In this document: piece after piece, positions 5,095-14,619 of the stretch
How the letters are laid out: each line of letters starts with the position of its first letter
Position numbering within the stretch: the first letter of the stretch is position 1
Assembly: GCA_951406725.2 (NCBI GenBank)
Contig: OX597839.1
Location: 5,518,001 to 5,582,000 of the forward strand
Reading direction: 5' to 3'
DNA length: 64,000 nucleotides
Source: Octopus vulgaris
Taxonomy: Eukaryota
Made by a program: the position numbers and the translations under genes
Notes under the pieces: generated by a model
The model's input: the letters and a program-made list of their open reading frames with translations, nothing else
What the model was told of the DNA's origin: nothing
The model's database searches: none

Positions 5095-5795
5095 ACAATT
5101 TCTAGCTTCGTTAGTAGAAGTGCTAATGCTGCACAATTTTAAGCCAGATTAATTCACTTGTTCTAATTCTCATTGAGAATGTGTTAAAGAATGCTCCATC
5201 AACGGAAAATTCTCACTATAGATACTCCTCACAAAAGCGTTACTCCTCTGTGGTACAGCTCCAATGAAATCAGAATATTCTAAATCAGAATATACTACAC
5301 ATTTGTCTATTGATATCGGCGGCGAGCTGGCAGAAACGTTAGCACGCCGGGAGAAATGCGTAGCCGTATTTCGTCTGGCGTTACGTTCTGGGTTCAAATT
5401 TCGCCGAGGTCGACTTTGCCTTTCATCCTTTCGGGGTCGATAAATTAAGTACCAGTTACGCACTGGGGTCGATATAATCGACTTAATCCGTTTATCTGTC
5501 CTTGTTTGTCCCCTCTGTGTTTAGCCCCTTGTGGGTAGTAAAGAAATATATTGATATCGGCAAAATTTCTACTTCTTGTAGACGTACTAATGCTGCATAA
5601 TTTTAAACCAGATTAGTTCATTCGTTCTAATAATTATCGAGAATGTGGTGGAGAATGCTCCATTTACAGAAAATTCTCTCTGTAGTTACTCGTCGCTAAC
5701 GCTTTACTGCTGCGGGGTACAGCACCAATGAAGTTATTTCTAAGTCAGAATATACTAAATAATATTCTACTGACGTCAGCAAAGCTTCTACTTGT
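5095..5795. repeat. Old ~230-bp tandem duplication interrupted by a SINE
   Basis: CTAATGCTGCA.AATTTTAA.CCAGATTA..AGAATGCTCCAT..GAAAATTCTC..GGTACAGC.CCAATGAA..CAGAATATACTA occurs at ~5123 and ~5587. Confidence 0.8.
5318..5548 (+). mobile_element. SINE family A, full length, with 13-bp target-site duplication (TSD)
   Basis: Head GGCGGCGAGCTGGCAGAAACGTTAG..GGTTCAAATT (A/B boxes), central GCCTTTCATCCTTTCGGGGTCGATAAA, tail TTAGCCCCTTGTGGG..AAAGAAAT. TSD TATTGATATCGGC at 5308-5320 and 5549-5561. Confidence 0.9.
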
Positions 5796-12090: not shown

Positions 12091-12486
12091 GTAGGCGCAG
12101 GAGTGGCTGTGTGGTAAGTAGCTTGCTAACCAAACACATGGTTCGGGTTCAGTCCCACTGCGTGGCACCTTGGGCAAGTGTTTCTGCTATAGCCCCGGGC
12201 CGACCAATGCCATGTGAGTGGATTTGGTAGACGGAAACTGAAAGAAGCCTGTCGTATATATGTATATATATATATATATATATGTGTTTGTGTGTCTGTG
12301 TCTGTCCCCCTAGCATTGCTGGTGTGTTTACGTCCCCGTAACTAAGCGGTTCGGCAAAAGAGACCGATAGAATAAGTACTGGACTTACGAAGAATAAGTC
12401 CCGGGGGTCGATTTGCTCGACTAAAGGCGGTGCTCCAGCATGGCTGCAGTCAAATGACTGAAACAAGTAAAAGAGTAAAAGAGAGT
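12091..12486 (+). mobile_element. SINE family B (tRNA head, CORE-like segment, internal microsatellite), full length
   Basis: GGCGCAGGAGTGGCTGTGTGGTAAG..GGTTCAGTCCC..GCACCTTGGGCAAGTG..(TA)n..GGCGGTGCTCCAGCATGG..AAACAAGTAAAAGAGTAAAAGAG. Confidence 0.9.
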
Positions 12487-12982
12487 AAGTGTATACCTCC
12501 GTATGGAAATGATCTGACTGACGAATTTGAAATATATATAGACTTACCAAACTTCTAAAAACTCTACTCGTTAATGAATATTTTTCAATTTCTCTTAACC
12601 AACTGTATTTCTGTGATTTATGTATCTCCGTAAAGAAAGAACACTGTAAACAGTCTCAGTTTTTTGGAAATACTGCTGGAATCTACATGAAAATATACAT
12701 GAAAATATACAACTCCCATTGGACAATCAATAGCTGGCAGTAAGCAGCTGCTATCACTTCTACAGAATATCTAGGATTTAGCTGCAGGGAGTGTGGTAAT
12801 AGTATGTACATACCAAAATCTTGAAGGAAAACGTACATCTATAACTTGAGATATAGAAATGAAGATTTGCATTCTATGATTATATACCAGAGATAATAGC
12901 CTCCCTGCAGCAAACTTTTTTTTACATGAAAAACTGACTAAAACAATTGGATTTCTACATTTCAACTTCTAAAAAATAAAAT

Positions 12983-13150
12983 GGAGCGGCTGTGTGATAA
13001 GTAGCTTGCTTACGAACCACATAGTTCCGGGTTCAATTCCGCTGCGTGGCACCACCTTGGGCAAGTGTCTTCTACTATAGCCTCGGGCCGATCAAAGCCT
13101 TGTGAGTGGATTTGGTTGACGGAAACTGAAAGAAGCCCGTCGTATATATG

Positions 13151-13193
<43 letters not shown>

Positions 13194-13466
13194 ATGTGTG
13201 TGCGTGTGTGCGTGCGTTGTGTGTGCGTGTGTGCGTGTGTGTGTGTTTGTGTGTTTGTGTGTTTGTGTTTGTCCCCCCAACATAGCTTGATAACCGATGC
13301 TGGTGTGTTTACGTCACCGTAACTTAGAAGTCTGCAAAAGACACCGATATAATAAGTACTAGACTTACAAAGAATAAGTCCTGGGGATCGATTTGCTCGA
13401 ATAAATGCGGTGCTCCAGCATGGCCACCATCCCATGACTGAAACAAGTAAAAGAGTAAAAGAGTAA
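12983..13466 (+). mobile_element. SINE family B
   Basis: Same layout as 12091-12486. Confidence 0.9.
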
Positions 13467-13611
13467 AAAATCCAAAGAAGAACTCAAGATGGCGATTGAA
13501 GACTTTCGTTATTGGTAATGTTTAAAAGAACATTTATCGCTTCTTAAACGAACCGATATTAACTACAAGTTTACTTTTAATATCCAAGCTATATCTGAAC
13601 GAATAAAGAAT

Positions 13612-13908
13612 TTGCAGCGTGGAAGGTGTTTATAAGCCATTGAAGACACACACAAAACTGTTAGATTCACTTCAGCATTTAAATTTAATTTGTCAAAATA
13701 TTTTCGTCGCTTTGAGACCGCGACCTATTCACTGACAAAATTCTATGCTGAATCAAAATTTTGAGATGCAGCACAGAATTTTGTCAGTGAACAGGTCGCG
13801 GTCTCAAAGCGAAGAAAATATTTTGACAAATTAAATTTAAATGTTGAAGTGAATCTAACGGTTTTGTGTGTTTCTTAAATGGCTTATAAACACCTTCCAC
13901 GCTGCAAT
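13612..13908. repeat. ~140-bp-arm inverted repeat; each arm carries a core-variant hammerhead
   Basis: TGCAGCGTGGAAGGTGTTTATAAGCCATT... is the reverse complement of ...AATGGCTTATAAACACCTTCCACGCTGCA; short central spacer. Confidence 0.9.
13780..13830 (+). ncRNA. Candidate G3:C8 core-swapped hammerhead (mirror copy at 13689-13739 on -)
   Basis: UUUGUCA-GUGAACA-G-GUCGC-ggucucaaa-GCGA(C/A)-GAAA-A-UA-U-UU-UGACAAA. Confidence 0.55.
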
Positions 13909-14619
13909 TGTTTTCGTTCCAGCACACGATCTCAGATCAAGTCACTCGCTATGCAAGTACATTTCCGTAAATAAAGAATTTAATCTTCGTGAAATCATCT
14001 TAGTTTACATTGGCCAAAAATATGTAAAAGAATTTCATTCGGATTGCTTGATAATAGCCAAATACAAGGAACAAATTCTACACAAATTTCAACATTTAAC
14101 AATTGCATATTCATCTAAGAAACTTTAACGGAAGCTGTAGGAAAGTTGAATAATATGAAGACATCAAGAAAAACCTTAATTGTTGGATACAGGTACAAAA
14201 TATTGACGTTCTGCACGCAAGTCTAAAACAGTCTAAGAAGGCCAGATTGACATAGCAAATTGCTTTGTCATTGCACGAACCAATCCTGTAGCCAAGAACG
14301 AAAACACTTATTTGGCAGTGAACTATAGCCTTATTGATTTCCTCAGCAATATCTAATAAACGTTAAACAAGCTGTCTCAAACGACTTCTCTAAGACCATT
14401 CCGAGTCCAACAAGATAGTGACTGATGAGCGGGGGAGGTGGAATGAAGGGATCGGGTGGATGAGCTTTACAACGTTTGGTAAATATAATCTAAAAGAAGA
14501 AAATACTATAGAAAATTTATGATTTGAACACAGAAATGCTTCACATTCTATTTTCAATCCCCTGTTGCAGTAGTTACCTCCCTTGTCTGAAATAGCGTCT
14601 GATAAGCCGCAACCATTAA

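What the first reader, a model, noticed from the sequence alone, without database searches (positions are those of the whole stretch)
13689..13830. Core-swapped hammerhead (G3:C8 instead of C3:G8) in both arms of a long palindrome
Seen: UUUGUCA-GUGAACA-G-GUCGC(loop)GCGAC-GAAA-A-UA-U-U-U-UGACAAA. Stem I (7 bp), stem II (5 bp, perfect in the left arm), GAAA and palindromic stem III (AAUAUU) are in exact HHR register, but the core is GUGAACA (left arm GUGAAUA, G3.U8). Established: positions 3 and 8 form a Watson-Crick pair in the active fold, and compensatory swaps can retain activity. Inference: a natural rare-variant HHR carried by a repeat family, invisible to CUGANGA searches.
Basis: partly seen in the sequence, partly recalled or inferred. 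Interest (0 to 1): 0.8.

Follow-up and report, generated by a model that had tools for sequence, protein, structure and literature searches.

The report
Octopus retroelement hammerhead, flipped core pair
The palindrome is a short inverted insertion of an abundant, young octopus Penelope-like jumping gene whose hammerhead RNA motif has its core pair fixed as G-C where its sister families have C-G or U-A; it likely still cuts RNA weakly, but cutting is untested.

Summary
Confirmed and strengthened. The palindrome (about 13610-13970, with a 12-bp target duplication) is a truncated, inverted copy of the pseudo-LTR of an autonomous RT + GIY-YIG Penelope-like element (PLE) with about 4,000 or more copies. 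Its last 92 bases are the first 30 codons of the PLE ORF.

G3:C8 is the family state: 94 of 100 and 80 of 86 sampled arms have it, and no other letter reaches 3% in four other organisms. The sister PLE lineage (55% protein identity) has C3:G8 at the same place. Six metagenome relatives have C3:G8 (4) or U3:A8 (2). The 3:8 pair therefore covaries across the clade, and G3:C8 is likely derived.

The other features match known PLE minimal hammerheads: extra G, G10.1-C11.1, palindromic helix III, U17. I found natural U3:A8 in print, but G3:C8 only as an engineered, partly active mutant; one key paper was unavailable.

Caveats: cleavage is untested. Both window copies are damaged, they lie on opposite strands, and they are predicted to be buried in a 150-bp hairpin. 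Inserted copies derive from uncut RNA.

Verdict: new variant of a known kind.

The parts
13602..13613 (+). Left target-site duplication (12 bp)
   Evidence: Identical 12-mer at 13602-13613 and 13970-13981
13610..13758 (-). Inverted short arm of the pLTR copy; ends near unit position 150, the inner of two inferred reverse-transcription start sites
   Evidence: 35 of 45 short arms in the sample end at unit 146-153
13689..13739 (-). Hammerhead motif, left arm (G3.U8, a decayed copy; stem II perfect)
13763..13970 (+). Long arm: pLTR unit from the shared 5' end to the end of the tail
   Evidence: 5,010 exact tail matches, about 17 in 100 of them another repeat
13780..13830 (+). Hammerhead motif, right arm (G3 13787, C8 13792, extra G 13794, A instead of C at 11.1 = 13813, predicted cut between 13823 and 13824)
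13879..13970 (+). First 30 codons of the PLE RT-endonuclease ORF; includes the roughly 57-nt tail present on one arm only
   Evidence: The same stretch runs in frame into the ORF in L305 and L306; translation
13970..13981 (+). Right target-site duplication (12 bp)

Best explanation
The motif is the minimal hammerhead of a Penelope-like retroelement whose 3:8 core pair is fixed as G:C, likely flipped from an ancestral C:G, and it likely still self-cleaves weakly as a dimer or with help from the element's protein. Shown: a family-wide G3:C8; position in the pLTR about 90 nt upstream of the ORF start and about 1 kb behind the ORF stop; full elements with two same-strand motifs 4.26 kb apart; C:G and U:A at the same place in relatives. 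Inferred: a transcript likely starts about 20 nt before the motif. The RT-endonuclease would nick AT-rich DNA and start copying at two internal sites (unit about 150 and 209), running to the RNA 5' end across the uncut site. That would give short head-to-head insertions such as this one. In tandem transcripts two motifs would pair through AAUAUU and cut after U17. The window copy itself is probably inert.
For: Fixation: G3 and C8 together in 94 of the first 100 of 1,839 exact-flank arms (counted by hand). G:C in 80 of 86 arms from 79 copies chosen by the tail, not the core. No other letter at 3% or more at 13787 or 13792 in 4 of 4 runs labelled as other organisms. Parent element: a 1,025-aa open frame with a YSRYVDD motif and a GIY-YIG domain; unit in frame with the ORF; inverted-pLTR-ORF-pLTR copy L325; 10 young loci 97.9-99.5% identical to L152. 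Covariation: the sister lineage (55% identity; SH-aLRT 99 in a quick tree) has C3:G8 in 28 of 30 copies of its older subfamily, with compensated stem II and a different self-complementary helix III. Six metagenome relatives give 4 C:G and 2 U:A. Common non-CpG subfamily variants fall in 5 of 9 loop-2 positions but 1 of 42 stem and core positions, and that one keeps a U.G pair. Literature: C3G/G8C partly restores cleavage in a PLE hammerhead that needs protein, and two internal RT starts make the tail (PMC11167929).
Against: No cleavage data. 5' ends do not pile up at the cut site: 4 of 124 arms end within unit 58-66, against 62 of 124 alignments beginning at unit 1-8, nine of which continue upstream. 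Inserted templates were therefore uncut; the same holds for the active lizard PLE. Depletion of variants in the motif against the whole rest of the unit is not significant (1 of 42 vs 17 of 159, p=0.13). The youngest sister subfamily and L206 carry C at the normally invariant position 9, and L209 has U15.1-A16.1, which suggests loose catalytic constraint in this clade. The swap only partly rescues activity. Any stepwise route from C:G to G:C passes a mismatched state (inference). 12 of 18 metagenome loci gave no motif (8 with little or no 3' flank, 4 with flank), and 2 of the 6 hits were parsed by eye.
Confidence: 0.65

Rival explanations
1. The fold is kept as a structural or protein-binding element of the pLTR RNA, or as a brake on the short upstream reading frame, and no longer cuts to a useful extent.
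For: Templates are uncut. Cleavage is not needed for insertion in vitro (PMC11167929). Core changes at positions 9 and 15.1/16.1 are tolerated in relatives. PLE minimal hammerheads cleave poorly in vitro (PMC4209133).
Against: A Watson-Crick 3:8 pair is kept in all lineages parsed, in three pair types. That pair is reported for the active conformation and not for minimal ground-state crystals (PMC3884650 passage).
Confidence: 0.24
2. A neutral relic: two chance substitutions in one master element hitch-hiked to high copy number, and the complementarity is luck.
For: After one change at N3, a second random change at N8 restores pairing about one time in three. Individual copies decay freely: only 50 of 75 arms keep all 13 core positions. 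N3 lies at the centre of a short imperfect palindrome, which could flip it in one repair event (inference from the sequence).
Against: Subfamilies 82-85% identical in the ORF share the core and stems while loop 2 differs. Helix III changed yet stayed self-complementary.
Confidence: 0.1
3. The hammerhead look is a chance pattern in a microRNA-like or MITE hairpin.
For: The best Rfam match of the palindrome is a miRNA-precursor model (80.9 bits, gathering 140), and no hammerhead model is among the 150 listed of 612 matches.
Against: 0 of 3,000 shuffles match. Rfam also misses the canonical C3:G8 relatives. The unit is part of a PLE and runs into its ORF.
Confidence: 0.01

Closest known systems
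Minimal type I hammerheads of metazoan PLEs (Cervera and De la Pena 2014, PMC4209133; parts 1-2 of 4 of the text and parts 1-2 of 3 of the supplement read)
   Same: pLTR location, extra nucleotide between 9 and 10.1, G10.1-C11.1, palindromic helix III suited to dimers, U17 common, copies on opposite strands
   Different: Core is G3:C8. Their representative alignment (Fig. S3, 56 motifs) shows C3:G8, U3:A8 and one U3.G8, but no G3:C8. Helix I here is longer (7 bp).
Natural U3:A8 hammerheads (Perreault 2011, PMC3088659, passages read; Schistosoma Cercyon PLEs)
   Same: Natural covariation at the 3:8 pair
   Different: Those keep pyrimidine 3 and purine 8 (two transitions). Here purine and pyrimidine are exchanged (two transversions), putting C at position 8, whose 2'-OH is reported essential (PMC8495972 passage).
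Poseidon PLE of Anolis, PAc (Frangieh 2024, PMC11167929; parts 1-2 of 4 read)
   Same: Hammerhead next to the ORF start, two internal RT start sites within the ORF 5' part that make a tail, AT-rich targets, uncut RNA as template; the engineered C3G/G8C mutant is partly active
   Different: PAc is naturally C3:G8. This element has a Cys-rich linker before the endonuclease and a tail of about 57 nt.
Nematis clade of PLEs (Craig 2021, PMC8557442; passages, section 11 and supplement part 54 read)
   Same: C-terminal GIY-YIG with a short CxxxC-CxxC linker and CCHH residues, judged by eye; (TA)n targets
   Different: Clade placement was not tested against reference sequences. The tree only separates this group from the two other PLE families sampled in the genome.

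Membership tests
PLE minimal hammerhead | Helix I and II closing a type I junction | tested here: met
   7-bp stem I and 5-bp stem II in intact copy L152, and in its MFE fold
PLE minimal hammerhead | Watson-Crick pair between positions 3 and 8 | tested here: met
   G:C in 80 of 86 arms; C:G or U:A in relatives
PLE minimal hammerhead | Literal consensus letters C3 and G8 (CUGANGA) | tested here: not met
   G3 in 83 of 85 and C8 in 81 of 86 arms; this is the variant
PLE minimal hammerhead | U4 G5 A6, A9, G12 A13 A14, A15.1-U16.1, H17 | tested here: met
   Majority letters at all these columns; U17 in 96 of 97
PLE minimal hammerhead | Extra nucleotide after 9 and G10.1-C11.1 pair | tested here: met
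   Extra G 80 of 85, G10.1 79 of 85, C11.1 84 of 92; broken in the window's right arm
PLE minimal hammerhead | Palindromic helix III | tested here: met
   AAUAUU is self-complementary; cofold of two copies forms an 8-bp intermolecular helix there
PLE minimal hammerhead | Lies in both pLTRs of a PLE | tested here: met
   L325: motifs at 5250 and 9511 flank the ORF
PLE minimal hammerhead | Self-cleavage after N17 | not testable with these tools
   No raw RNA reads were offered; needs an assay
Penelope-like element (EN+) | Single ORF with RT and C-terminal GIY-YIG | tested here: met
   PF01541 over its cut-off. RVT_1 was not hit; RT rests on the YSRYVDD motif, similarity to an RVT_1-matching PLE (E 9e-9) and homologue names
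Penelope-like element (EN+) | Partial tandems, inverted 5'-truncated copy, one-sided tail | tested here: met
   45 of 79 copies have an adjacent inverted arm, 35 of 45 ending at unit 146-153; L325
Nematis clade | RT phylogeny with reference Nematis elements | not tested
   No reference sequences were held; only the linker motif was compared by eye
Rfam hammerhead families | Covariance-model hit | tested here: inconclusive
   No hit listed, but canonical relatives L186, L207 and L214 were missed too
microRNA precursor (MIR6140) | Gathering score | tested here: not met
   80.9 bits against 140

The most novel reading that the evidence does not exclude
A well-supported natural, family-fixed G3:C8 hammerhead, not found in print by my searches. 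It would be an active ribozyme that crossed a double-transversion valley inside a recently active retroelement, in a PLE clade that explores three or more core states (C:G, U:A, G:C, plus C9 and U15.1-A16.1). This would imply a hidden class of genomic hammerheads missed by CUGANGA and UUGANAA searches, and a natural series for testing what PLE hammerheads do.
Probability: 0.45. Interest if true: 0.78.

Novelty: new variant of a known kind. Interest (0 to 1): 0.62.

Why it matters
The 3:8 pair is a signature of the active hammerhead fold. Its G:C form was, in what I could read, known only from mutagenesis. A young element with thousands of copies that carries it, next to a sister with the canonical pair, gives a ready-made natural comparison. 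It bears on an open question, whether PLE hammerheads must cut for the element to spread. It also shows that genome searches with a fixed core miss whole high-copy families.

Tried and rejected
- RNA evidence: no RNA holder listed on record. X11 is only a guessed RNA run and holds contigs, so nothing is concluded on expression, ends or editing.
- Rfam: uninformative.
- GIY-YIG family search: found two other PLE families (U3:A8 and C3:G8 motifs), not the parent. The parent was reached through a loose end and the search.
- A C3:G8 subfamily inside this family: not found. There is 1 such copy among 75 non-G3 copies. Six of the 8 non-G3 copies that also changed position 8 are complementary; this is only a hint (p 0.001-0.06 by assumed rates, hand counts).
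- MAFFT alignment of the motifs: out of register, with two rows at wrong coordinates; not used, so no formal covariation score was computed.
- The careful tree did not finish; the quick tree is cited and no one-clade test was run.
- Papers not held: Lunse 2017, Nelson and Uhlenbeck 2008, and Martick and Scott 2006. Lunse 2017 (recalled: very many PLE hammerhead variants) or its supplements could contain G3:C8.
- Searches behind 'not found in print': (open-access library only). PMC13282606 (passages) has no occurrence of 'hammerhead' or 'ribozyme'.
- Cis dimer between the two arms: rejected, because they are on opposite strands.

Full report
1. Observation. The motif is present as described. 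The right arm reads stem I 13780-13786/13824-13830, core GUGAACA 13787-13793, an extra G, stem II 13795-13799/13809-13813, GAA, AAUAUU and U17 at 13823. The left arm carries the same motif on the minus strand with U8. The arms are 93% complementary over 150 nt, and a 12-bp direct repeat flanks the insertion. A descriptor allowing any Watson-Crick 3:8 pair hits a natural element end once and 0 of 3,000 shuffles.

2. The family. The window lies in a 2.8-Gb genome. A protein labelled Octopus vulgaris matches the genome at 100%, so I infer an octopus. An exact tail pattern has 5,010 matches; 17 of the first 100 listed run into a different repeat, judged by eye, leaving roughly 4,000. I dropped those 17 and fetched the first 80 of the remaining 83; 79 were family copies. 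In them G3 is found in 83 of 85 arms, C8 in 81 of 86 and C11.1 in 84 of 92; the pair is G:C in 80 of 86. With the core left free, 1,839 arms match, and 94 of the first 100 have both G3 and C8 (hand count). Only 75 arms match with another letter at 3, and 67 of them keep C8, as expected from decay. In contigs of four runs labelled as four other organisms, no other letter reaches 3% at 13787 or 13792, while 13813 reads C in 80-95% of depth. G3:C8 is therefore the master state, and each window arm is one step decayed.

3. The parent. A loose end led to 1,076 copies with a longer 5' part. These continue about 1 kb upstream into an ORF with a YSRYVDD motif and a GIY-YIG domain. In L305 and L306 the unit's last 92 nt run in frame into the ORF N-terminus, so window 13879-13970 is the first 30 codons. 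L325 has the textbook PLE layout: inverted truncated copy, pLTR, ORF (frameshifted), pLTR, with two same-strand motifs 4,261 nt apart. Ten young loci are 97.9-99.5% identical to L152 over the 3' ORF, and the older, window-like copies 82-85%. Copies with the ORF N-terminus are rare: about 10 matches above 70% identity, only three of them with the motif attached upstream. Many insertions sit in (TA)n.

4. How the palindrome arises (inferred). 45 of 79 copies have an adjacent inverted arm. Long arms were chosen by their end at unit 209, and 35 of 45 short arms end at 146-153. This matches the two internal RT start sites and one-sided tail shown for the lizard PLE (PMC11167929) and the inverted truncated copies described for PLEs (PMC8557442). 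62 of 124 arm alignments begin at unit 1-8, nine of them continuing upstream. Short copies often begin with a G where long copies have C (16 of 53 listed starts). That would fit a transcription start with a copied cap, although the upstream sequence also looks like a splice acceptor. Only 4 of 124 arms end within unit 58-66, so templates were uncut. A read-through transcript of this locus is predicted to fold into one long hairpin (-233.5 against -164.8 kcal/mol), so the window copy is probably inert.

5. Comparative evidence. The nearest relative with a known motif is a second PLE lineage of the same genome (55% identity; sister with SH-aLRT 99 in a quick tree). It has the motif at the same place before a homologous N-terminus. 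It has the same extra G, an A-U pair in stem II where ours has G-C, and a different self-complementary helix III. Of 18 metagenome relatives, six show the motif 89-147 nt after the protein match: four C3:G8 and two U3:A8. Four were found by scan and two parsed by eye; 12 gave none. On the tree the G3:C8 family sits among C:G and U:A lineages, so it is likely derived. Between subfamilies, common non-CpG variants hit 5 of 9 loop-2 positions and 1 of 42 stem and core positions (p=0.0003), but the contrast with the whole rest of the unit is not significant (p=0.13). Against strict catalysis: the youngest sister subfamily and L206 have C9, and L209 has U15.1-A16.1.

6. Known systems. Cervera and De la Pena define PLE minimal hammerheads with an extra nucleotide, G10.1-C11.1, a palindromic helix III and low dimer activity, and report natural U3-A8. 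Their representative alignment has no G3:C8 and many U17. Perreault reports natural U3:A8. G3:C8 appears as an engineered partial rescue, including in a PLE hammerhead that cleaves only with protein and whose cleavage is not needed for insertion in vitro. Nine literature searches found no natural case; Lunse 2017 was not held. Two unchecked notes of this scan mention G3-C8 candidates behind PLE-like RTs in other genomes. They suggest recurrence but were not tested here and are not counted as support.

7. Verdict. The motif is a real, homologous PLE hammerhead with a fixed, probably derived G3:C8 pair (about 95% sure). It most likely retains weak, dimer- or protein-assisted cleavage (65% for the whole mechanism). 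The main rival is a non-cutting structural role. New variant of a known kind; interest 0.62.

Noticed in passing
window 1507 and below, minus strand (about 1470-1515): A canonical C3:G8 minimal hammerhead motif of another repeat family (also in L080 and L168).
   Followed up: no
L164-L167, L172-L174 (sister PLE pLTR): The youngest sister subfamily, with many 1,311-1,312-aa open frames, has C at core position 9; L170 and L175 keep A9. L206 also has C9.
   Followed up: partly
L209, about 90 nt after the ORF: Motif with U15.1-A16.1 instead of A-U in a related PLE.
   Followed up: no
L110-L139, just upstream of the unit: A branch-point-like CTAAC, pyrimidine tract and YAG end exactly at the shared 5' end of short copies. 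This may be a splice acceptor or a start site; short copies often have an extra G there.
   Followed up: partly
L063 (G000:C18:35457846): One family copy with a canonical C3:G8 core on one arm and G3:C8 on the other.
   Followed up: partly
L071, L073, L074, L077, L082, L107; L067, L101, L104: Two other PLE families of this genome carry U3:A8 and C3:G8 motifs; several copies of the latter read C4 instead of U4.
   Followed up: partly
window 12100-12480 and 12980-13460: Two copies of an abundant SINE-like repeat; the right one lies about 150 nt left of the insertion.
   Followed up: no
window 13766-13834: A short upstream reading frame starts at the unit's 5' end and runs through the hammerhead before the main ORF start.
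   Followed up: no
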